Virus record (IMG/VR): IMGVR_UViG_2651869781_000013
Origin: a virus
Taxonomy: Duplodnaviria > Heunggongvirae > Uroviricota > Caudoviricetes
Length of the DNA stretch: 36,125 nucleotides
Direction: 5' to 3' (one strand)
How positions within the stretch are numbered: the stretch's first letter is position 1; each line of letters opens with the position of its first letter. The notes under the pieces were generated by a model. That model saw only the letters and a program-made list of their open reading frames with translations, ran no database searches and was not told where the DNA came from. Below are positions 2,621-36,125 of this stretch, piece after piece. The position numbers were made by a program, and so were the translations under genes.

Positions 2621-2732
2621 AACTGAAGTTGCCCTGAAAATGAAATTTTTTTGCACAACCGCAGAACTTTTCCGCAGGGCATCAGTCTTAATTAGTGCCA
2701 CTGCTTTTCTTTGATGTCCCCATTTTGTGGAG

Positions 2733-2779
2733 CCCATCAACCCCGCCATTTCGGTTCAAGGTTGATGGGTTTTTTGTTG
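2733..2779 (+). terminator. rho-independent terminator downstream of ybjL
   Basis: Inverted repeat cccatcaacc / ggttgatggg (2733-2742 and 2760-2769) followed by a T-run tttttt (2770-2775). Confidence 0.5.
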
Positions 2780-10144: not shown

Positions 10145-10711
10145 TCAGGGGGATTCATTGATCTTATTTGCCGGAAATTTTCTATAAATGGTAGAAACGC
10201 CTACATCAAAAATCAGTGCAATACGCTGTCTTGATTCTCCGGCCTCGAGTAAACGCCCAATCTGTGCCCACTGTTCGGTGGTCAACTTAGGACGGCGTCC
10301 ACCTACTCTGCCTTTGGCACGAGCTGCAGCCAGCCCTGCCCTGGTACGTTCAACTATCAGTTCGCGTTCCATTTCAGCCAGGGCACCCATGACATGAAAA
10401 AAGAAACGGCCCATTGGGGTACTGGTATCAATACTGTCAGTCAGGCTTCTGAAATTCACACCACGCTGGCGCAACTCTTCTATCAGCGTAACAAGATGTC
10501 GCATACTGCGCCCCAACCTGTCCAGCTTCCAGACAACCAGCGTGTCTCCTGCCGATAGTGTCCTGAGTAGTTTTTTCAGCCCCGGTCTGTCGGACTTAGT
10601 GCCACTGATTTTGTCCTCAAAAATCCGCTCACATCCCGCGCAGTTCAGTGCATTACGTTGCAAATCGGTGTTCTGGTCATTTGTTGACACGCGTACATAG
10701 CCAATAAGCAT
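10145..10711 (-). CDS. serine DNA invertase (Gin/Hin/Pin/Cin family)
   Basis: 188 aa from ATG 10711: MLIGYVRVSTNDQNTDLQ...DTLVVWKLDRLGRS...C-terminal HTH; closely resembles recalled Mu Gin; RBS GGGGGA. Confidence 0.9.
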   Translation of the reverse strand: MLIGYVRVSTNDQNTDLQRNALNCAGCERIFEDKISGTKSDRPGLKKLLRTLSAGDTLVVWKLDRLGRSMRHLVTLIEELRQRGVNFRSLTDSIDTSTPMGRFFFHVMGALAEMERELIVERTRAGLAAARAKGRVGGRRPKLTTEQWAQIGRLLEAGESRQRIALIFDVGVSTIYRKFPANKINESP

Positions 10712-10767
10712 GATCATCCCCCTGAATAAAAACCGGAGATGATGCCAGTTAGCTGTTACCTCTGCAT

Positions 10768-10791
10768 TTTCTTAAACGTTGGTTTAGGAGA
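10768..10791. repeat. gix/hix-like inversion crossover site 1
   Basis: TTCTTAAACGTTGGTTTAGGAGAA; its reverse complement TTCTCCTAAACC-AA-CGTTTAAGAA matches the left half and AA core of site 2; about 55 bp upstream of the invertase gene. Confidence 0.7.
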
Positions 10792-11137
10792 AGCGGCGAA
10801 AAGGGATGTGGGCACAGGAGATAATCAGATACCTGATATGTCTTACTGGTCTTCACCGGCAGGCGGAATTAATTTCCCGAATGGGTTCCAGATGCGATTC
10901 GGGACTATCGCTGGTACTGGTGGAAAATTATTTTCTACGCCATTTACAAATCAGTGCTATGGCATTGTTTTCGGACAAACATATGGAGCCAACTACTGGA
11001 TGTTCAGCCCGATGTACAGAGCATCTGATCTGAGTAATACCGGTTTTGCATTCATTAACAAAACCTGGTCTGGCGTTCCGGGGGTAGGTTCTCAGGACGC
11101 TGGTGAATCAGTTTTTTATATTGCAGTAGGGTATTAA
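10781..11137 (+). CDS. alternative tail-fibre C-terminal cassette (silent in this orientation)
   Basis: Open frame continuing in phase from the crossover site (GLGEAAKRDVGTGDNQ...); no independent promoter or RBS; would fuse to H residues 1-350 after inversion. Confidence 0.65.
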   Translation, partial: GLGEAAKRDVGTGDNQIPDMSYWSSPAGGINFPNGFQMRFGTIAGTGGKLFSTPFTNQCYGIVFGQTYGANYWMFSPMYRASDLSNTGFAFINKTWSGVPGVGSQDAGESVFYIAVGY

Positions 11138-11138
11138 T

Positions 11139-11582
11139 ATGGAAATGGTTTATAGCGCCTCAAATAATAGTTTTTTCGCTAAAAATGATGTGGCGAAATA
11201 TGAACAGACCGGATGGGAACTTGCTGATATTGTCGAAGTGACATATGACACTTACCTGGAATTTATTGAAGACAGAACGTTGCAAGGGAAAGTACGCATC
11301 GCGGGTGATGATGGCCTTCCCGCCTGGGGGGAAATTCCACCGCCAACTCATGAGGAACAAATTGCCGCAGCCGAACTGGAAAAGCAGCAATTGATTAATC
11401 AGGTCAACGAATACATATACAGTAAGCAATGGCCTGGTAAAGCAGCGATTGGTCGCCTGAAAGGTGAGGAACTGGCGCAATATAATTTGTGGCTGGATTA
11501 TCTGGACGCACTGGAACTGGTTGATACCTCCAGTGCTCCAGATATTGAATGGCCTACGCCTCCGGCAGTTCAGGCCAGATGA
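11139..11582 (+). CDS. alternative tail fibre assembly protein (Tfa, U'-like)
   Basis: 147 aa, ATG right after the cassette stop (TAATATG); C-terminus APDIEWP resembles the active Tfa C-terminus APDVIWP. Confidence 0.75.
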   Translation: MEMVYSASNNSFFAKNDVAKYEQTGWELADIVEVTYDTYLEFIEDRTLQGKVRIAGDDGLPAWGEIPPPTHEEQIAAAELEKQQLINQVNEYIYSKQWPGKAAIGRLKGEELAQYNLWLDYLDALELVDTSSAPDIEWPTPPAVQAR

Positions 11583-24877: not shown

Positions 24878-24911
24878 GTTTAAACTGGCTGTCGGAACAG
24901 CCAGTTTAAAC
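24878..24911. terminator. palindrome, probable bidirectional terminator between Q and the cargo operon
   Basis: Perfect 14-bp arms GTTTAAACTGGCTG / CAGCCAGTTTAAAC around a 6-nt loop; overlaps the stop codon of ORF 24906..25754. Confidence 0.5.
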
Positions 24912-25754
24912 ACCGGCACCAATGAAATCGCCATATGAATCTTCTTCAAGGCTGATGTATTCTACCCTCCATTGATCCATCCGCCTCAATGCATACAGGG
25001 AGAAATGAGTATCAGCAACAGCTATGCACGTATTCAATTCTATAAGTTCTGAATGCCCCAAGGTTGGATCACCATAAAACTTATAAAACAAAGCCTTTAG
25101 ATCAGAACATGTTTGTTCAGCCGCTCTTCTGGCATCGGGGCCACCTTCAGTTGCATCATAAACAACATTGATAGAAAGCTCATATGGTATGCCTTCCTCA
25201 AGATCGTTAAATCTTTCTTCGCCCAAATCGAAAAAAACTCCGATCAAATGCTCTGCGTTTGTGGCGATAATATCCGCAACTTCTTTTTCGAAAATAAACT
25301 TTTTATCCTCGTCGTAAGCCCGCAAGCGCTCTTCAAACGAGTTAGGAAACGCTGGACGACCATACTTAGCAGCTAACCATTGCTTAAGAGCTTGTTTCTC
25401 TTCTGTGCTAATGGAGAATGCTGGATCGTTTTCCTCACAACAGAAAGCTTCTTTAGGAAAGATGACTTTCCTTTCATGCCGGAGCTCTACTGCATTCTTC
25501 TTCGCACTTTCTGGGTTTTCAAAACATAGATCGAGTATTCTCGGATGCTTAGCTCTTTTCATCCTGCTTGACCCCTTTTTCAAGGGGCCAAACATCAGTT
25601 CCACGTTTTTTTCTGAATTACTCTGTAAATCACAATCATGCGTTATAACTACAACTTTATGGTTCGTTTCATCAGGCTGCAGAATTCCAAGTGAAACGGC
25701 ATCATCATGTTTAAGTACATGCCCCTGACGCCATGATGTTCCTCGTACCAACAT
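24906..25754 (-). CDS. cargo operon gene 3, hypothetical protein
   Basis: 282 aa, ATG 9 nt after the gene 2 stop; AT-rich; no Walker A, HEXXH or other motif recognised. Confidence 0.55.
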   Translation of the reverse strand: MLVRGTSWRQGHVLKHDDAVSLGILQPDETNHKVVVITHDCDLQSNSEKNVELMFGPLKKGSSRMKRAKHPRILDLCFENPESAKKNAVELRHERKVIFPKEAFCCEENDPAFSISTEEKQALKQWLAAKYGRPAFPNSFEERLRAYDEDKKFIFEKEVADIIATNAEHLIGVFFDLGEERFNDLEEGIPYELSINVVYDATEGGPDARRAAEQTCSDLKALFYKFYGDPTLGHSELIELNTCIAVADTHFSLYALRRMDQWRVEYISLEEDSYGDFIGAGV

Positions 25755-25763
25755 AAATGTGAT

Positions 25764-26426
25764 TTATTCCTCTACCGTTCCAGGAATTGAAATAGATGAC
25801 TTCCAATCATCTGTCGGTTTCGCCTTGCTTGCTAAGTAATTGGCCGATTCAGCAGCAGCATTCATCGCTTTAGCTTCATCAATCAATACCTGAACTGCCC
25901 TATTCCAATCCTCACCTTCTTTTACTACGTCCATTAATGACTTACCATTAAATGCTTTCATTTTCACCAATAGCTTCGCATCATGGAGTCCAGCTTTGGA
26001 AAAAGAGTCAGCGACATTACTAAGGTTGATAATGAATTGCACTTTTGAAGCATCATCAGGCTGGTTCTCCCCTGACAACCATTTATAGAGAGCCTGCCGA
26101 GTTATCCCCAAATCCTTTGCCAGTTCTGACATTGATGGAGACAGCACTTCTCGAATATTAGCTAAATGTTGGGCAACATTCCTGACATCAACCTCAGGAG
26201 AAATTGCAGGCGTGTACGTTGATTCTATGGAATCAAATGCAAACTGAACCCTTGGCTGAACATACTGACGCCATTGCTTATAAGCATTTACAGGGTATGA
26301 AGCCCCCGTACCAACTAATAGTAAAGATGCGGCGACAGCAACAACACCTGATACACATGAGCTTGACTGCAAATTTGGAGAATATCGATCTACAGAGCCT
26401 ATGCTTCCGGTGGGAATTGCATACAT
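25764..26426 (-). CDS. cargo operon gene 2, HTH (XRE-type) protein with N-terminal hydrophobic segment
   Basis: 220 aa from ATG 26426 with RBS GGAGGT, 20 nt after the gene 1 stop; HTH SMSELAKDLGITRQALYKWLSGE; hydrophobic stretch VSGVVAVAASLLLVGTGA. Confidence 0.6.
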   Translation of the reverse strand: MYAIPTGSIGSVDRYSPNLQSSSCVSGVVAVAASLLLVGTGASYPVNAYKQWRQYVQPRVQFAFDSIESTYTPAISPEVDVRNVAQHLANIREVLSPSMSELAKDLGITRQALYKWLSGENQPDDASKVQFIINLSNVADSFSKAGLHDAKLLVKMKAFNGKSLMDVVKEGEDWNRAVQVLIDEAKAMNAAAESANYLASKAKPTDDWKSSISIPGTVEE

Positions 26427-26445
26427 TTTAGTCACCTCCGTTGTT

Positions 26446-27255
26446 TCAGTGCCATTTAGTACGGGCAAAATCTGAAACCATGCCTTCAAATGCTTCTTTA
26501 ACTTTACTATGCAACGAAAGAATCTGTTTTTCAATTAACTGCAAATCAGTTGACATGTTGCCTTCAACATAATGATCTGTATCAATTATTGCGTGCATAC
26601 GATGCTCTGTGTTACTAAATCTCGGCAACGGCAGTAAACCATTAGGAATCATATCTGGCGGAAAACCTAGCTGACCATTCATCTTATGTATTCGTGAAAC
26701 CATAAATCCATTAGGGATCAATGGCTCAACACGTGTCTGATATACGGACTCTTGTATAGACTGTATTGGCGTCCATCCGAAATCAACACCATGAAGTTCC
26801 TTTACAAGATACTGCTCAATTGTTTCGCTTTTCTCAGGAAACACAGCATCCAAATATCGAAGCCCAATCCGACTTAACAGCGATGGCTTAGCAAATTCTA
26901 GAACTTTGCTCAGACCAAGTATCAATGACGAGATGAAAGATACATGGTTATCATAATATGTTGTATGGAACGTAATGAAATCGTTGCCTAAAACAAAACC
27001 AGATCTTCTATCTGCATCAATCATCAACCAACTTGTCACAGGCTCAAATGAATGTACCGGTGGCTCATTGGGGTTTTTTATTTCAAATTTCAACTGAGTT
27101 GTATTGGAAACCTCAAATAAAGGAAATCCCTCAACTCTTAGCGCATCTTGTATGTCTGGAACATACTTACTCATTGCAGCTATTGGAGTAAACTTTACCT
27201 GTACCAATGCATAGTAAACGGGCGCATTGGACATACGTTCGCTGTTAGTACTCAT
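26446..27255 (-). CDS. cargo operon gene 1, hypothetical protein (possibly TIGR04255-like, unverified)
   Basis: 269 aa, ATG with strong RBS AGGAGG; AT-rich; N-terminus MSNAPVYYALVQVKF resembles a recalled family signature; no catalytic motif recognised. Confidence 0.6.
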   Translation of the reverse strand: MSTNSERMSNAPVYYALVQVKFTPIAAMSKYVPDIQDALRVEGFPLFEVSNTTQLKFEIKNPNEPPVHSFEPVTSWLMIDADRRSGFVLGNDFITFHTTYYDNHVSFISSLILGLSKVLEFAKPSLLSRIGLRYLDAVFPEKSETIEQYLVKELHGVDFGWTPIQSIQESVYQTRVEPLIPNGFMVSRIHKMNGQLGFPPDMIPNGLLPLPRFSNTEHRMHAIIDTDHYVEGNMSTDLQLIEKQILSLHSKVKEAFEGMVSDFARTKWH

Positions 27256-27395
27256 GCCGCCCTCCTTGAAATTGTTTCATCTCATATCTCTTTATCTTAC
27301 TAACTGTAGTTTACACATAGGTTGACACTTTCTCCATCATTAAGTTCACTATGACATCAATAGCCAAAACTCTTACGTAATCGCTTCGGCGCGCG

Positions 27396-27414
27396 CTCGT
27401 ATCCCCGCCACGCC
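27396..27414. other. probable cos site (cohesive end)
   Basis: Minus strand reads GGCGTGGCGGGGATACGAG; first 13 nt match my recollection of the 186/P2 19-nt cohesive ends; GC-rich block in a 360-bp non-coding interval. Confidence 0.45.
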
Positions 27415-27617
27415 TGCCCGCTTTATGTAGTGGTTTTCATGCACCTGCATGATCTACGCAAAAGCCCGCCAGTTCTGGCAGGCCTTAGCAAAAACGATCC
27501 TCAAACGATCATGCGATCTCATGCGGCATAGACATGCACCACAGAGCTAACGCCTCGCACAGCTCGTTGTTCAACCTTGCTGACGCCAGAAGCAAGTTCA
27601 GACGCCAGCAACGTTTC

Positions 27618-27851
27618 TTAATGCAGCCAGCTGTCGTCTTCCCACACCTTCTGCATAATTTTCATCACTTGTTTTCTTTCTTCGTCCAGTTGAAGTCCGG
27701 TCAGTTCCACACCGTTAGAGCTACCTTTGCGGATACGAATTACCGTTTTGGGATACAGGGGGCGCAGATTGCGGTAAAGCTCGGATTCAAGGGCGTCCAG
27801 TGTAGACTGGCTAACCTTCTGCTCTTTATCGATCATTATTTCAATGCGCAT
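27618..27851 (-). CDS. DinI-family protein (Tum C-terminal-like)
   Basis: 77 aa from ATG 27851 (MRIEIMIDKEQKVSQSTLDALESEL...WEDDSWL) with RBS GAGGTG; resembles recalled DinI. Confidence 0.7.
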   Translation of the reverse strand: MRIEIMIDKEQKVSQSTLDALESELYRNLRPLYPKTVIRIRKGSSNGVELTGLQLDEERKQVMKIMQKVWEDDSWLH

Positions 27852-27861
27852 AAAAGTCACC

Positions 27862-28050
27862 TCAGCTGATGACATCCATTGAGCGGTTGTATTCGTGGGT
27901 TCTGATTTTTGCCATGAGTTCATCTGTCAGTTCAGAAACCCACTGCAGGGCCAGCCCCTTCTCTTCATCACTACACTCACTAGCCGCTACAAGCTTAAGA
28001 AAAAAATCAATGCGCTGGAGCTTCAAAGACTCCAAAAAATAGTCCTGCAT
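27862..28050 (-). CDS. small protein, possible Tum-like antirepressor N-terminal module
   Basis: 62 aa, strong RBS AGGAGG; first gene after a LexA-boxed promoter; assignment by position only. Confidence 0.45.
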   Translation of the reverse strand: MQDYFLESLKLQRIDFFLKLVAASECSDEEKGLALQWVSELTDELMAKIRTHEYNRSMDVIS

Positions 28051-33050: not shown

Positions 33051-33272
33051 CTAATTAAGGTTTAGATTGCATTCTGAAAGCGCATCAACGGTCATGGCTG
33101 CTATGTTGATCATCACTTTTTCGCGTTTTTTATCTTTGCGCAAACGGTGACGGATAAGGCGTCCATCAGCCAACATGTCATTGATGGTATCGATGGACAG
33201 TCCTGTCAGCTCGCTATAGCGTTCAATAGTCACATGAGGCGTGGTAAGAGTGATTGAAATGTTAGGTCTCAT
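33051..33272 (-). CDS. apl: Apl/Cox-like excisionase and early repressor
   Basis: 73-aa basic protein, first gene of the early operon immediately upstream of cII. Confidence 0.65.
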
Positions 33273-33397
33273 GATGCAACATTCCTCGTTTAATGATGAT
33301 TAATCAGGACGAATACGGATCGTTTGTATTTTGTGAACACCATAAACATACGATCGCACTGTGAAATCGTCAAGATAAAAGTTCACTTGGAGTGACC
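33273..33397. promoter_or_regulatory. lysis-lysogeny switch region (divergently arranged apl and cI)
   Basis: 125-bp AT-rich interval between the apl and cI starts with repeated TGTGAA/GTTCAC elements; exact operators and promoters not resolved. Confidence 0.4.
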
Positions 33398-33967
33398 ATG
33401 AATTTGGAGAAAGGCGGACGAGGCGCTATAGAGCGCATGGTAGAAGCTTATGGATTCAAAACTCGACAGGCGTTGTGCGATCATTTAGGAATCTCTAAAA
33501 GTACACTCGCTACACGCTACATGCGTGACTCATTCCCAGCAGAATGGGTAATCCAGTGCGCCCTTGAAACGGGCACCTCGCTTAATTGGCTCACAACTGG
33601 ACATGGTTCAAAGCAAACTTCAGGTAATACAAATACGATGGAAGTTGCTAAATATGTATTATCTGATGGTGCCTTGCGTGAAGACGGTTTTTATATTTTT
33701 GATAAGGGATTTCTACCCTCTACGTTTAAAAAACCTTTTGTCATCACAGATAACAATTCTGAATTTATTTGTGATAAAGAATTTGATGATATACGTGATG
33801 GTAAATGGGTAATAAGTATTGATGGCGAAATAACAATCCGCGACATTACTCGTTTACCCGGTGGAAGAATCTTCGTTGAAGGTGGAAACAGATCCTTCGA
33901 GTGCAAGATAGAAGATGTTGAAATAATTGGAAAAATTATAAGTTTAACAATTAAGTACGTTAGGTAA
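33398..33967 (+). CDS. cI: CI-like immunity repressor
   Basis: 189 aa from ATG 33398; N-terminal HTH (LGISKSTLATRYMRD); position as in 186. Confidence 0.65.
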   Translation: MNLEKGGRGAIERMVEAYGFKTRQALCDHLGISKSTLATRYMRDSFPAEWVIQCALETGTSLNWLTTGHGSKQTSGNTNTMEVAKYVLSDGALREDGFYIFDKGFLPSTFKKPFVITDNNSEFICDKEFDDIRDGKWVISIDGEITIRDITRLPGGRIFVEGGNRSFECKIEDVEIIGKIISLTIKYVR

Positions 33968-33982
33968 TACCGGGAGGAAACT

Positions 33983-34174
33983 ATGCTTGGTAAGGTATTT
34001 TTTGTGGTTTTATCATGCTCTTTGTTATTAAACCCACTAACTACCTATGCTAAAAATTATCCTTGTTCTGGGAAAAAGGGAGGTGTCTCTCACTGTACCT
34101 CCGATGGAAAGTTCGTTTGCAATGATGGAACTATTAGTAAATCAAAAAAAATCTGTACTAAAAACTCGCGATAA
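33983..34174 (+). CDS. small secreted cysteine-containing protein (moron)
   Basis: 63 aa, RBS GGAGG; signal peptide [23 protein letters not shown]; basic mature part with 4 Cys; AT-rich. Confidence 0.5.
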
Positions 34175-34360: not shown

Positions 34361-35392
34361 ATGGCAGTACGAAAACTCACCACAGGAAAATGGCTTTGCG
34401 AATGTTACCCCGCCGGACGTAGTGGGCGTCGTGTGCGTAAACAATTCGCCACCAAAGGCGAAGCACTGGCTTTTGAGCGTCACACGATGGAAGAAACCGA
34501 AGCAAAGCCCTGGCTGGGCGAATCAGTAGATCGTCGAACCCTGAAAGACGTGGTTGAGCTATGGTTCAAACTACATGGTAAATCTCTGACTGCTGGGCAG
34601 CATGTCTATGACAAATTGCTGCTGATGGTTGACGCTCTGGGCAATCCCCTTGCAACCGATCTCACATCTAAAATGTTTGCCCATTATCGAGATAAACGAC
34701 TGACAGGTGAGATCTACTTCAGCGAGAAATGGAAGAAAGGGGCCAGCCCGGTCACCATTAACCTGGAGCAAAGCTATCTAAGTAGTGTTTTTAGCGAACT
34801 ATCCCGCCTGGGCGAATGGTCGTATCCAAACCCACTGGAGAACATGCGAAAATTCACCATCGCAGAAAAAGAGATGGCATGGCTTACCCATGAGCAGATT
34901 GTTGAACTGCTGGATGATTGCAAACGTCAGGACCCAATTCTGGCACTGGTAGTCAAGATATGCTTAAGCACAGGCGCACGCTGGCGAGAAGCAATAAACC
35001 TTACCCGATCACAGGTGACCAAATACCGAATTACCTTTGTAAGAACGAAGGGGAAGAAAAACAGAAGCATCCCTATCAGTAAAGAGCTTTATGAAGAGAT
35101 CATGGCGCTTGATGGGTTCAATTTCTTCACAGACTGCTATTTTCAATTTTTATCCGTGATGGAAAAAACGTCTATCGTGCTCCCTCGCGGTCAACTTACA
35201 CACGTTCTGCGTCATACGTTTGCGGCGCATTTCATGATGTCGGGTGGAAACATCCTTGCTTTGCAAAAAATCCTCGGACATCACGACATAAAAATGACTA
35301 TGCGTTATGCTCATCTATCACCTGATCACTTAGAGACAGCTCTTCGTTTCAATCCACTAGCAACTTTGGATGTTACTAAATCAGATTCTTAA
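34361..35392 (+). CDS. int: tyrosine integrase (P2/186 family)
   Basis: 343 aa from ATG 34361; C-terminal motifs R...HxLRHT...Y (LTHVLRHTFA ... MTMRYAHL); adjacent to attL. Confidence 0.85.
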   Translation: MAVRKLTTGKWLCECYPAGRSGRRVRKQFATKGEALAFERHTMEETEAKPWLGESVDRRTLKDVVELWFKLHGKSLTAGQHVYDKLLLMVDALGNPLATDLTSKMFAHYRDKRLTGEIYFSEKWKKGASPVTINLEQSYLSSVFSELSRLGEWSYPNPLENMRKFTIAEKEMAWLTHEQIVELLDDCKRQDPILALVVKICLSTGARWREAINLTRSQVTKYRITFVRTKGKKNRSIPISKELYEEIMALDGFNFFTDCYFQFLSVMEKTSIVLPRGQLTHVLRHTFAAHFMMSGGNILALQKILGHHDIKMTMRYAHLSPDHLETALRFNPLATLDVTKSDS

Positions 35393-35402
35393 AGGTTCAA
35401 GC

Positions 35403-36125
35403 ATGGTTAAGTTTTTGTTTCAATTCCCAATATTCGACTTCTCCTTAACATTTGATATTATCGAGACGTTAATCACTCATAGCGAATCATCAATCGCTAA
35501 GGGTATAGCAGAATATAAAGACAAAGGACCTGAAGAATATATAATTGAAATATCTCCGGAAGATGGTGTATATCAGTCAATTGATCATTACATGGGACTC
35601 ACCAGCTCATCGCTAGATCTCGATGAAATGTTTTTAGAATACTACCCAAGTATTATCCGCAGGTCAGTATTCTTAACTATATTCGGAATTTTTGAGCACG
35701 AAATAGAAAAATTCTGTAACAACTTTGCTAATAGACATCATTCTCCTATAAATGTTTCAGATCTCAAAGGAAGTGGATTTGAGAGGAGTCATCTATTTAT
35801 CAAAAAAATGATAGGGATGAAGTCAACATCCCACTATTCGAATATCAAAAAAATAACAAAATTAAGAAACAGTTGTGCGCATAATGATGCAAAATACTTA
35901 GAAAACGATGGGCAAAATATTAAAAGCATTATTGAACTTATAGAAAAATATCCTGATTTTTTTAAAAAAGATGGAAAACAGGTCCTATTTATGGAGGGCT
36001 CGTTAAGCATGATCTTGAACTCATTCAAAGAGTATCTTTCTGATGTTGAAAGAGCCTTAGATGAATTCGAAAAACAAAGCACTAGTGGCGACAAAGTGGC
36101 GGCAGCGGTTGGCATTACCCCGTAA
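35403..36125 (+). CDS. hypothetical AT-rich cargo protein with possible HEPN Rx4H motif
   Basis: 240 aa from ATG 35403 (alternative ATG 35370 inside the int 3' end); motif KLRNSCAHN; last about 13 codons cross the attL core. Confidence 0.45.
   Translation: MVKFLFQFPIFDFSLTFDIIETLITHSESSIAKGIAEYKDKGPEEYIIEISPEDGVYQSIDHYMGLTSSSLDLDEMFLEYYPSIIRRSVFLTIFGIFEHEIEKFCNNFANRHHSPINVSDLKGSGFERSHLFIKKMIGMKSTSHYSNIKKITKLRNSCAHNDAKYLENDGQNIKSIIELIEKYPDFFKKDGKQVLFMEGSLSMILNSFKEYLSDVERALDEFEKQSTSGDKVAAAVGITP
36086..36107. repeat. attL core (prophage left junction)
   Basis: TGGCGACAAAGTGGCGGCAGCG, 21/22 identical to 2834-2855. Confidence 0.7.

What the first reader, a model, noticed from the sequence alone, without database searches (positions are those of the whole stretch)
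35370..36125. AT-rich ORF between int and attL with a possible HEPN Rx4H motif
A roughly 240-aa ORF lies immediately downstream of int (possibly overlapping its 3' end) and is far more AT-rich than the prophage core. It contains KLRNSCAHN, which fits the Rx4-6H signature of HEPN RNase domains found in abortive-infection and toxin proteins. Its last codons run through the attL core, so its C-terminus depends on the integration junction. A single short motif is weak evidence, so the HEPN call is tentative.
Basis: partly seen in the sequence, partly recalled or inferred. Interest (0 to 1): 0.6.

Follow-up and report, generated by a model that had tools for sequence, protein, structure and literature searches.

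The report
Solo HEPN cargo gene inside int's tail
A 186/P2-like prophage of E. coli carries, wedged into the last codons of its integrase gene, an AT-rich cargo gene for a stand-alone HEPN-type (probable RNA-cutting) protein that most likely protects the lysogen against other phages; it is a plausible but untested new member of a known kind of defence gene.

Summary
The ORF is real: 35403-36125 (+), 240 aa, GC 0.34, identical to RefSeq WP_000238243.1. It is phage cargo, because the empty K-12 site lacks it.

The HEPN call holds. R155, N156 and H160 stay conserved across about 2,000 distant relatives. The AlphaFold model (pLDDT 86.5) puts the Rx4H motif at the end of the third core helix. The best structural matches are HEPN toxins. 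Relatives hit HEPN profiles (best E 4e-8 and 7.5e-10). UniRef already names this exact protein "Cthe-2314-like HEPN".

The attL claim is wrong. The crossover core is the last 14 nt of the sRNA gene rybB, and the right-hand copy lies 74 bp beyond the stop codon, outside the window. The last 42 bp of the ORF are instead the fossil 3' end of the integrase gene. They carry two 186-type Int arm-binding repeats. A 715-bp cassette sits between int codon 336 and those repeats. An unrelated 89-aa cassette fills the same slot in 209 E. coli genomes.

Relatives occupy the same slot in other genera, a P4-like satellite and plasmids. The gene often outlives a decayed integrase.

Best reading: a stand-alone abortive-infection RNase, analogous to HepS. 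Function is untested.

The parts
35403..36125 (+). Cargo ORF of 240 aa (WP_000238243.1), a stand-alone expanded HEPN-domain protein. An in-frame upstream ATG at 35370 would give 251 aa.
   Evidence: ORF list. RefSeq CDS at the same coordinates in strain AR_0019. Homologue N-termini begin MVKF. AlphaFold pLDDT 86.5, pTM 0.81.
35865..35882 (+). Rx4H catalytic motif, R155-N-S-C-A-H160.
   Evidence: Read from the sequence. Invariant in A3. R155 invariant, and N156 and H160 at least 90% conserved, in 97 distant relatives. Lies at the end of predicted helix 145-161.
35369..36083 (+). The 715-bp inserted cassette. It supplies a new 7-codon int tail (DVTKSDS plus stop), a ribosome-binding site and the ORF body. 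It replaces 3 nt (CCA) of the ancestral int.
   Evidence: Protein and DNA alignments with the uninterrupted int-attP of phage KP12 and prophage 813R9. GC 0.326.
36084..36125 (+). Fossil 3' end of the ancestral int gene (SGDKVAAAVGITP plus the TAA stop), now read in frame as the C-terminal tail of the cargo ORF.
   Evidence: 100% identical to the last 42 bp of the annotated integrase genes of 15 phage records, with the same end point. Residues 230-240 have pLDDT below 50. Distant homologues lack the tail and have their own stop codon just before it.
36086..36104 (+). P-arm Int arm-type binding repeats, TGGCGACA-AAG-TGGCGGCA.
   Evidence: The pattern occurs only twice in the window, against 0.00 expected. 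It matches the reverse complement of the published 186-type arm consensus tgccGCCActt (PMC3448106).
2834..2852 (+). P'-arm Int arm-type repeats at the other prophage end, TGGCGACA-AAA-TGGCGGCA.
2700..2778 (+). rybB sRNA gene. Its last 14 nt (2765-2778, ATGGGTTTTTTGTT) are the att core at the ogr-side junction. The int-side copy lies 74-87 nt beyond the window end.
   Evidence: Rfam RF00110, 105 bits, full length. Common substring of the two junctions. Empty K-12 site. Alignment A2.
34361..35392 (+). Tyrosine integrase of 343 aa. It is 98% identical to the 350-aa int of relatives, but its last 14 residues are replaced by 7 cassette-encoded ones.
   Evidence: Pfam Int_N and Phage_integrase. Alignment A1. 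DNA identity is 91-99% (mostly 96-98%) through windows starting up to nt 856, then 82-83% in the last window from nt 901. GC3 over the last 150 nt is 0.38, against 0.50 in the same stretch of 813R9 int.
33392..34174 (+). 186-type CI repressor (33392-33967) and a 63-aa cargo ORF (33983-34174). Both lie on the same strand upstream of int and the HEPN ORF, suggesting one lysogenic operon.
   Evidence: Pfam Phage_CI_repr and Phage_CI_C. ORF list. No terminator-like site on the + strand between CI and int.

Best explanation
The ORF is a single-gene moron carried by a 186/P2-like prophage integrated at the 3' end of rybB.

A 715-bp AT-rich cassette sits in the narrow gap (CCA plus one or two further nt) between the last conserved integrase codon (L336) and the first Int arm-type repeat of attP. 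The cassette cuts off the native 14-residue int tail. In this lineage the cargo ORF has no stop of its own, so it reads in frame through the retained int tail to the old int stop.

The product is an expanded, stand-alone HEPN domain. Its predicted core helices are about 14-41, 73-111, 145-161 and 200-228, with inserts between them. It has an intact R155-N-x3-H160 site and a conserved upstream E98.

I infer the following, none of it shown:
- The gene is transcribed in the lysogen with cI and int, and the transcript ends at the hairpin formed by the P arm plus the att core.
- The protein assembles into an autoinhibited oligomer.
- On infection by another phage it is activated and cleaves RNA (tRNA, rRNA or mRNA) without metal, arresting translation. 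This would be abortive infection that protects the lysogen population, as shown for the unrelated solo HEPN protein HepS.

Shown here: gene structure, insertion anatomy, conservation, predicted fold, and location on mobile elements.
For: HEPN fold and active site:
- The catalytic motif and E98 are conserved across 32 and 97 relatives.
- The family has 2,097 representatives of 50%-identity clusters at E<=1e-3, and 549 at E<=1e-10. Almost all are full-length proteins of 220-240 aa.
- The AlphaFold model is confident and places Rx4H at the end of a core helix, as the HEPN definition requires (PMC3710099).
- Ten of Foldseek's top 11 PDB matches are MntA-HepT/SO_3166 HEPN toxins (the other is LRRC8A), with probability up to 0.90.
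- Every sub-threshold Pfam, PADLOC and PHROG hit that covers the motif is a HEPN or Abi family.
- Relatives reach HEPN_RiboL-PSP at E 4.2e-8 (19 of 97) and PADLOC RTasHEPN at E 7.5e-10 (74 of 97).
- UniRef names the identical protein a Cthe-2314-like HEPN protein.

Defence-type context:
- The int-att interval of P2-like phages is a reported minor defence hotspot (PMC13586616).
- Homologues of 41-79% identity sit in the same slot in Phytobacter, Enterobacter, Serratia, Salmonella and a metagenome. One sits in the primase-side region of a P4-like satellite.
- An unrelated 89-aa cassette alternates in the same slot. It is in 209 E. coli genomes, the HEPN cassette in 25, and the P arm in 1,124 of 5,426.
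- The ORF stays intact beside a frameshifted, stop-ridden or truncated int in 6 of 8 lineages, which suggests selection for the host's benefit.
- No antitoxin-like or partner gene is present. The neighbours are int and att.
Against: - There is no functional evidence at all: no expression data, RNase assay or phage-resistance data.
- The window protein itself passes no curated threshold. Its best Pfam hit is 17.1 bits against a 28.4-bit cut-off. NCBIfam gives nothing, and no PADLOC hit is better than E 0.0045.
- No PDB relative is detectable by sequence.
- Some relatives lie in plasmid regions next to ssb and psiB, a setting better known for establishment and anti-defence genes.
- None of 50,697 deposited phage genomes encodes a relative.
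- Co-transcription with cI and int rests on gene order and on what I recall of the phage 186 pL operon. No data here test it.
Confidence: 0.55

Rival explanations
1. It is a prophage or plasmid addiction toxin. The HEPN RNase would be held in check by an unrecognised antitoxin, such as a small RNA, a small peptide or its own N-terminal part. Its job would be to stabilise the element, not to block other phages.
For: The closest solved folds are HEPN toxins of MNT-HEPN toxin-antitoxin pairs. Relatives occur on 86 plasmid records. The gene persists where the prophage can no longer excise.
Against: No MNT or other candidate antitoxin gene lies next to it in any context examined. The neighbours are int, att, DUF4238 or unrelated plasmid genes. 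The gene remains intact in decayed prophage remnants, where nothing is left to stabilise. The solo HEPN protein HepS needs no antitoxin (PMC13043305).
Confidence: 0.12
2. It is a counter-defence or establishment factor. The RNase or RNA-binding protein would help the incoming element, whether phage, satellite or plasmid, overcome host systems. It might, for example, degrade host defence transcripts or signalling RNAs.
For: Homologues of 48-51% identity lie a few kb from ssb and psiB on Pantoea and Enterobacter plasmids. That is the leading-region neighbourhood.
Against: In phages the gene lies at the end of the lysogenic cI-int transcription unit, not among early lytic genes. It is retained in immobile prophage remnants. 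Its slots are reported as defence hotspots.
Confidence: 0.1
3. It takes part in site-specific recombination or its control. Its 3' end overlaps the Int arm sites, so it might act as a directionality or regulatory factor, or Int binding might regulate it.
For: The ORF overlaps the two P-arm Int-binding repeats. The adjacent int has lost its native tail and is often a pseudogene.
Against: Most prophages with this attP have no cassette, or have an unrelated one, so the gene is dispensable for recombination. Distant homologues end before the arm sites or sit in plasmids and satellites with no such att. The fold and the conserved residues point to an RNase, not a DNA-binding factor.
Confidence: 0.04

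Closest known systems
HepS, the solo HEPN abortive-infection protein of the Salmonella Gifsy-1 prophage (PMC13043305; PDB 9oik)
   Different: There is no detectable sequence similarity. Profile searches of PDB sequences at E<=10 do not find 9oik. The motif sits at R155/H160 here, against R100/H105 in HepS. The helper phage type differs (186/P2-like against lambdoid) and so does the locus (int-att against replication-antirepressor). The trigger, the oligomeric state and the tRNA target are known only for HepS.
Cthe_2314-like and RiboL-PSP HEPN families (Pfam PF18730, PF18735; HEPN superfamily of Anantharaman et al. 2013, PMC3710099)
   Same: These are stand-alone bacterial HEPN proteins with a conserved Rx4-6H motif. 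Cthe_2314 is listed with no known partners. UniRef gives the identical protein the Cthe-2314-like name. Relatives hit PF18735 at E 4.2e-8.
   Different: The window protein is below both Pfam thresholds in the copy used here. PF18735 scores 17.1 bits against a 28.4-bit cut-off, and PF18730 is not reported at E<=1. Neither family has a tested function.
HEPN toxins of MNT-HEPN (MntA-HepT) toxin-antitoxin pairs: SO_3166, HI0074, 7ae2, 8xdj
   Different: Those proteins are about 130 aa and are neutralised by an adjacent nucleotidyltransferase antitoxin. This one has about 228 structured residues with large inserts and no MNT neighbour.
The int-att minor defence hotspot of P2-like prophages and the primase-att hotspot of P4-like satellites (PMC13586616)
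   Same: The location matches. The gene lies between int and att of a P2/186-like prophage, and a homologue lies beside the P4 alpha primase.
   Different: In the passages I read, that paper reports the hotspot statistically. I saw no mention of the anatomy found here: cassettes inserted inside the int reading frame just upstream of the arm-type sites, leaving a fossil int tail. I also saw no mention of this gene family.
PADLOC RTasHEPN, the HEPN partner of a defence reverse transcriptase (probably UG22-associated, PMC9226505)
   Same: 74 of 97 relatives match this profile, best E 7.5e-10. The window protein matches at E 0.007 over the motif-bearing half.
   Different: No reverse transcriptase is nearby. 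The PADLOC profile has only 148 positions. That system is itself uncharacterised.

Membership tests
HEPN superfamily (as defined in PMC3710099) | A conserved Rx4-6H motif with a polar residue directly after the R | tested here: met
   The motif is R155-N156-S-C-A-H160. It is invariant in 32 homologues. R is invariant, and N and H are at least 90% conserved, in 97 relatives of 20-58% identity.
HEPN superfamily (as defined in PMC3710099) | [quoted passage not shown] | tested here: met
   The AlphaFold model (pLDDT 86.5) has helices 14-41, 73-111, [125-137 insert], 145-161 (motif at its end) and 200-228. The definition is quoted. This is a prediction, not an experimental structure.
HEPN superfamily (as defined in PMC3710099) | A second conserved acidic residue upstream, in helix 2 | tested here: met
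   E98 is at least 90% conserved and lies in helix 73-111. Its spatial closeness to the motif was not measured, because model coordinates could not be read.
HEPN superfamily (as defined in PMC3710099) | Structural similarity to solved HEPN domains | tested here: inconclusive
HEPN superfamily (as defined in PMC3710099) | Metal-independent RNase activity | not testable with these tools
   Requires biochemistry.
Pfam HEPN_RiboL-PSP (PF18735) | A score at or above the gathering cut-off of 28.4 bits | tested here: not met
   The window protein scores 17.1 bits, E 0.0055. 19 of 97 relatives match, best E 4.2e-8.
Pfam HEPN_Cthe2314 (PF18730) | A profile match | tested here: inconclusive
   The window protein gives no hit at E<=1. 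One member of A3 (E 0.063) and two of A4 (best E 0.0015) match. UniRef nevertheless names the identical protein Cthe-2314-like HEPN.
HepS family | Sequence homology to HepS (PDB 9oik) | tested here: not met
MNT-HEPN toxin-antitoxin pair | An adjacent nucleotidyltransferase antitoxin gene | tested here: not met
   The neighbours are int upstream and attP arm plus rcdA downstream. None appears in the other contexts either.
DRT system with an RT-associated HEPN (PADLOC RTasHEPN) | A reverse transcriptase gene next to the HEPN gene | tested here: not met
   No RT is present in the operon cI-orf63-int-ORF. The window protein matches the profile only at E 0.007.
P2-like int-att defence hotspot (PMC13586616) | [quoted passage not shown] | tested here: met
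   The order is int 34361-35392, ORF 35403-36125, att core 74 nt downstream. An alternative cassette and the empty state occur in other genomes.
186-type Int arm-type binding sites (PMC3448106) | At least two direct repeats matching tgccGCCActt on each side of the core | tested here: met
   AGTGGCGACA and AAGTGGCGGCA occur at 36084-36104, and the equivalent pair at 2834-2852. They are in the same orientation and flank the core. They are the only two matches in the window, against 0.00 expected. Binding by Int was not tested.

The most novel reading that the evidence does not exclude
The few nucleotides between int codon 336 and the first arm-type repeat may be a dedicated cargo dock inside attP. 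Two unrelated cassettes, the HEPN gene and an 89-aa gene, have right boundaries at the same nucleotide and left boundaries 3 nt apart. This leaves open a site-directed capture mechanism that works at the edge of the arm site, like an integron, as opposed to random insertion filtered by selection plus swapping by flanking homology. Cutting off the Int C-terminal tail may in turn weaken Int and help ground the prophage, which would explain why the HEPN gene so often sits beside a dead int. Separately, the HEPN family (about 2,000 clusters at 50% identity) may be a new self-sufficient sensor-effector abortive-infection protein with its own trigger.
Probability: 0.12. Interest if true: 0.7.

Novelty: new member of a known kind. 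Interest (0 to 1): 0.4.

Why it matters
If the protein is an active defence RNase, it adds a widespread single-gene HEPN family to the prophage-borne immune repertoire. The family has 2,097 representatives of 50%-identity clusters, and members occur on plasmids and satellites. It would also give a second example, after HepS, of a stand-alone HEPN protein that must both sense infection and kill. It is small and easy to test.

The anatomy shows how a temperate phage can carry cargo on the far side of its integrase. The cassette is tucked into the int reading frame just ahead of the arm-type sites that attP cannot lose. That explains the fossil int tail fused to the cargo protein. It also gives a precise landmark for mining the int-att hotspot in thousands of P2/186-like prophages.

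The repeated pairing of an intact HEPN gene with a decayed int suggests that hosts domesticate this gene.

Tried and rejected
Searches that gave nothing:
- NCBIfam scan: no family.
- PDB sequence searches with the 32- and 97-sequence profiles: only chance hits.
- tblastn against 50,697 deposited phage genomes: no relative.
- Literature search for WP_000238243 and WP_000238244: nothing.
- Search for papers on rybB as a P2-like integration site: nothing specific.

Searches that could not be run:
- AlphaFold-database fold search (afdb50): library not available.
It was repeated with A3 and returned 8 loci.

Ideas considered and rejected:
- The last 28 nt are not the att repeat. There is no second copy in the window. 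The true core was found by comparing the two junctions with the empty K-12 site.
- The ORF is not a host gene fragment. K-12 has only rybB and rcdA at this site.
- The 35370 start is unlikely, because homologues start at MVKF.
- The antisense ORF 35834-36115 (93 aa) has no support and lies in AT-rich DNA.
- The post-ORF hairpin alone is not statistically distinctive when the whole 99 nt are folded (z = -0.21). The consensus scan does call it a 9-pair terminator-like site.
Full report
**1. What the window is**

The window starts in E. coli chromosomal genes: grxA (1-258), ybjM, ybjL (935-2620) and the sRNA gene rybB (2700-2778; Rfam RF00110, 105 bits). A complete-looking 186/P2-like prophage follows. 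It runs from ogr and the late genes through to fil, cII, an apl/cox-like gene (33051-33272, minus strand), a 186-type CI repressor (33392-33967), a 63-aa ORF, int (34361-35392) and the ORF in question. In strain AR_0019 the same sequence continues into rcdA, ybjJ and ybjI. K-12 has rybB directly followed by rcdA. The ORF is therefore phage cargo, not a host fragment.

**2. Checking the observation**

- The ORF exists. The longest form is 35370-36125, and the supported form is 35403-36125 (240 aa, WP_000238243.1).
- Its GC content is 0.34, against about 0.55 for the late genes.
- KLRNSCAHN is residues 153-161.
- The identical protein is found on 551 public contigs. Full-length copies occur in 25 of 5,426 complete E. 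coli genomes.

**3. The att claim is wrong, and what replaces it**

The two prophage junctions share ATGGGTTTTTTGTT, which is the end of the rybB terminator. One copy is at window 2765-2778. The other lies 74-87 nt beyond the window end.

The last 42 bp of the ORF (36084-36125) are 100% identical to the last 42 bp of the annotated integrase genes of Klebsiella phage KP12, 4LV2017 and others, and of E. coli prophage 813R9. They end at the same stop codon.

- In those elements Int has 350 aa and ends ...RFNPLATLPSGDKVAAAVGITP.
- Here Int has 343 aa and ends ...RFNPLATL-DVTKSDS.
- The cargo protein ends ...EKQST-SGDKVAAAVGITP.

So a 715-bp cassette (35369-36083) replaces three nucleotides of an ancestral int. 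The retained int tail is now translated as the cargo protein's C-terminus. AlphaFold predicts residues 230-240 of that C-terminus as disordered.

The retained DNA contains TGGCGACA-AAG-TGGCGGCA (36086-36104). The only other match in the window is at 2834-2852, on the other side of the core, against 0.00 expected by chance. [quoted passage not shown] This explains why the 42 bp cannot be lost.

The P arm plus the core also forms a 9-pair hairpin followed by a T-run just after the ORF (L001 4885-4906). The transcript should therefore end the same way in the prophage and in the excised phage.

**4. How the cassette got there**

- The int DNA is 91-99% (mostly 96-98%) identical to 813R9 and KP12 through windows starting up to nt 856. 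It falls to 82-83% in the last window, from nt 901, mostly through synonymous A/T changes. The cassette therefore probably arrived by homologous exchange from a diverged donor phage that already carried it.
- Homologues of 73-79% identity from Raoultella, Cronobacter, Phytobacter, Citrobacter and Enterobacter have the same fused tail.
- More distant ones (41-60% identity, 224-229 aa) lack the tail. In Enterobacter, Serratia, Salmonella and a metagenome they have their own stop codon up to 18 nt before the same TGGCGACA repeats (0, 12 and 18 nt in L016, L008 and L011). They are followed by the same P arm and a rybB-like core.
- In 209 E. coli genomes an unrelated 89-aa ORF (WP_001032044.1) fills the same slot. 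Its right boundary is at the same nucleotide and its left boundary is one codon later.
- Sampled rows suggest that most of the remaining genomes among the 1,124 carrying this P arm have the intact 350-aa int.

The simplest reading is that only this gap tolerates insertion, because both Int and the arm sites must be preserved. Cassettes would then swap through the flanking homology.

**5. What the protein is**

- No curated threshold is passed. Even so, nearly every weak hit that covers the motif is a HEPN or Abi family: RiboL-PSP, Abi_2, DUF3644, HEC-01A, RTasHEPN, Cas13a and PHROG 2158.
- Across 32 homologues R155, N156, H160 and D162 are invariant.
- A profile search of 1.84 billion representatives finds 2,097 relatives at E<=1e-3, almost all full-length at 220-240 aa.
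- Among 97 relatives of 20-58% identity, R86 and R155 are invariant. E28, P82, E98, C105, N156 and H160 are at least 90% conserved.
- These relatives reach HEPN_RiboL-PSP at E 4.2e-8 and PADLOC RTasHEPN at E 7.5e-10, the latter in 74 of 97.
- The AlphaFold model (pLDDT 86.5, pTM 0.81) gives four long core helices with inserts. Rx4H lies at the end of helix 145-161 and E98 in helix 73-111. These are the features that define HEPN (PMC3710099).
- UniRef already names the identical protein "Cthe-2314-like HEPN domain-containing protein".

I put the HEPN assignment at about 0.85.

**6. Likely function**

Several points fit a lysogen-expressed defence gene.

- The gene lies on the same strand as cI, orf63 and int, and no terminator-like site is predicted before it.
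- In phage 186, as I recall it, the lysogenic pL transcript covers cI and int. This is from memory and was not checked here.
- The int-att interval of P2-like phages and the primase-att interval of P4-like satellites are reported as minor defence hotspots (PMC13586616). Homologues occupy both.
- The cI-int gap in relatives holds SNIPE/T5orf172, KAP NTPase and TPR proteins.
- No partner or antitoxin gene is present.
- In 6 of 8 distinct lineages the neighbouring int is frameshifted, full of stops or truncated, while the HEPN ORF is intact. That suggests retention for the host's benefit.
- The closest functional precedent is HepS, a solo HEPN protein of the Gifsy-1 prophage. HepS is an autoinhibited tetramer that a tail-tip protein activates to cut tRNA anticodon loops (PMC13043305). 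It is not related in sequence.

I therefore favour a stand-alone abortive-infection RNase, with confidence about 0.55. The rivals are an addiction toxin, an establishment or counter-defence factor (relatives lie near ssb and psiB on plasmids), or a role in recombination.

**7. Novelty and verdict**

The HEPN label already exists in UniRef. The hotspot has been reported statistically. Solo HEPN defence now has a precedent.

What is new here is the nucleotide-level anatomy: a cassette inside the int reading frame, a fossil int tail fused to the cargo, and arm sites embedded in coding sequence. Also new are the family's breadth and the recurrent survival of the gene beside a dead int. No experiment supports any function.

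The finding is a new member of a known kind. Interest is moderate, at 0.4.

Noticed in passing
window 2700-2778 and L001 4885-4913: The prophage integrates into the last 14 nt of the sRNA gene rybB and leaves rybB with a complete terminator. On the int side, the phage P arm (AACCCGTTTACATAA) plus the core rebuilds a similar 9-pair hairpin and T-run. This would terminate the cI-int-cargo transcript in both the integrated and excised states.
   Followed up: partly
L018 3227-3496 (E. coli ETEC1702; same slot as window 35369-36083): An unrelated 89-aa ORF (WP_001032044.1, no Pfam or PADLOC hit, GC 0.44) fills the same int-tail slot in 209 of 5,426 E. coli genomes. Its right boundary is at the same nucleotide as that of the HEPN cassette.
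   Followed up: partly
L005-L007, L008/L010, L016, L022, L025, L026 (int regions just upstream of the HEPN homologues): In 6 of 8 distinct lineages the integrase next to an intact HEPN homologue is frameshifted, carries stop codons (15 in L022) or is reduced to a remnant. It is intact only in E. coli (this window) and Serratia marcescens. The cause is open: sequencing error, prophage grounding, or a cost of losing the Int tail.
   Followed up: partly
window 35190-35368: The last ~110 nt of the retained int are only 82-83% identical to otherwise 91-99% (mostly 96-98%) identical int genes. The differences are mostly synonymous A/T changes, and GC3 over the last 150 nt is 0.38 against 0.50. This points to a recombination breakpoint inside int.
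   Followed up: yes
window 33983-34174: A 63-aa ORF between CI and int has a signal-peptide-like N-terminus and six cysteines. One RefSeq record calls it 'YdcA family protein'. In related prophages this cI-int gap holds a 558-aa SNIPE/T5orf172 (DUF4041) protein, a 483-aa KAP NTPase, a 526-aa TPR protein or a 289-aa unknown protein, so it is a second cargo slot.
   Followed up: partly
window 24906-27869: An AT-rich block (GC 0.39-0.44) lies between the portal-side genes and the replication gene, which is the classical P2 old/tin hotspot. It holds four ORFs (282, 256, 269 and 111 aa). None hits PADLOC, and the only Pfam hit is an HTH_3 domain, so it may be an undescribed cargo system.
   Followed up: partly
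window 10145-11582: A Hin/resolvase-type invertase (190 aa, Pfam Resolvase E 2e-53) lies next to a tail-fibre assembly gene (Caudo_TAP). This is probably an invertible tail-fibre host-range switch.
   Followed up: no
L014 4869-6687 and L015 (Raoultella ornithinolytica P4-like satellite): A 41%-identical HEPN homologue lies directly after a DUF4238 protein (335 aa; PADLOC DUF4238-Pers at E 2.8e-5), beside the P4 alpha primase. The same pair recurs on a second contig, so it may be a two-gene variant.
   Followed up: no
L012, L013, L023 (Pantoea and Enterobacter plasmids): Homologues of 48-51% identity lie 2-3 kb from psiB, with ssb also called in L012 and L013. In all, 86 plasmid records encode relatives, every one annotated as hypothetical.
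   Followed up: no
L001 4848-4880 (21-54 nt past the window end): Two tandem copies of CTAACTTATTGTTTT lie between the ORF stop and the att core. In other genera the equivalent TAACTTATTGATT fits the IHF consensus as I recall it (YAANNNNTTGATW). This is probably the P-arm IHF site.
   Followed up: no
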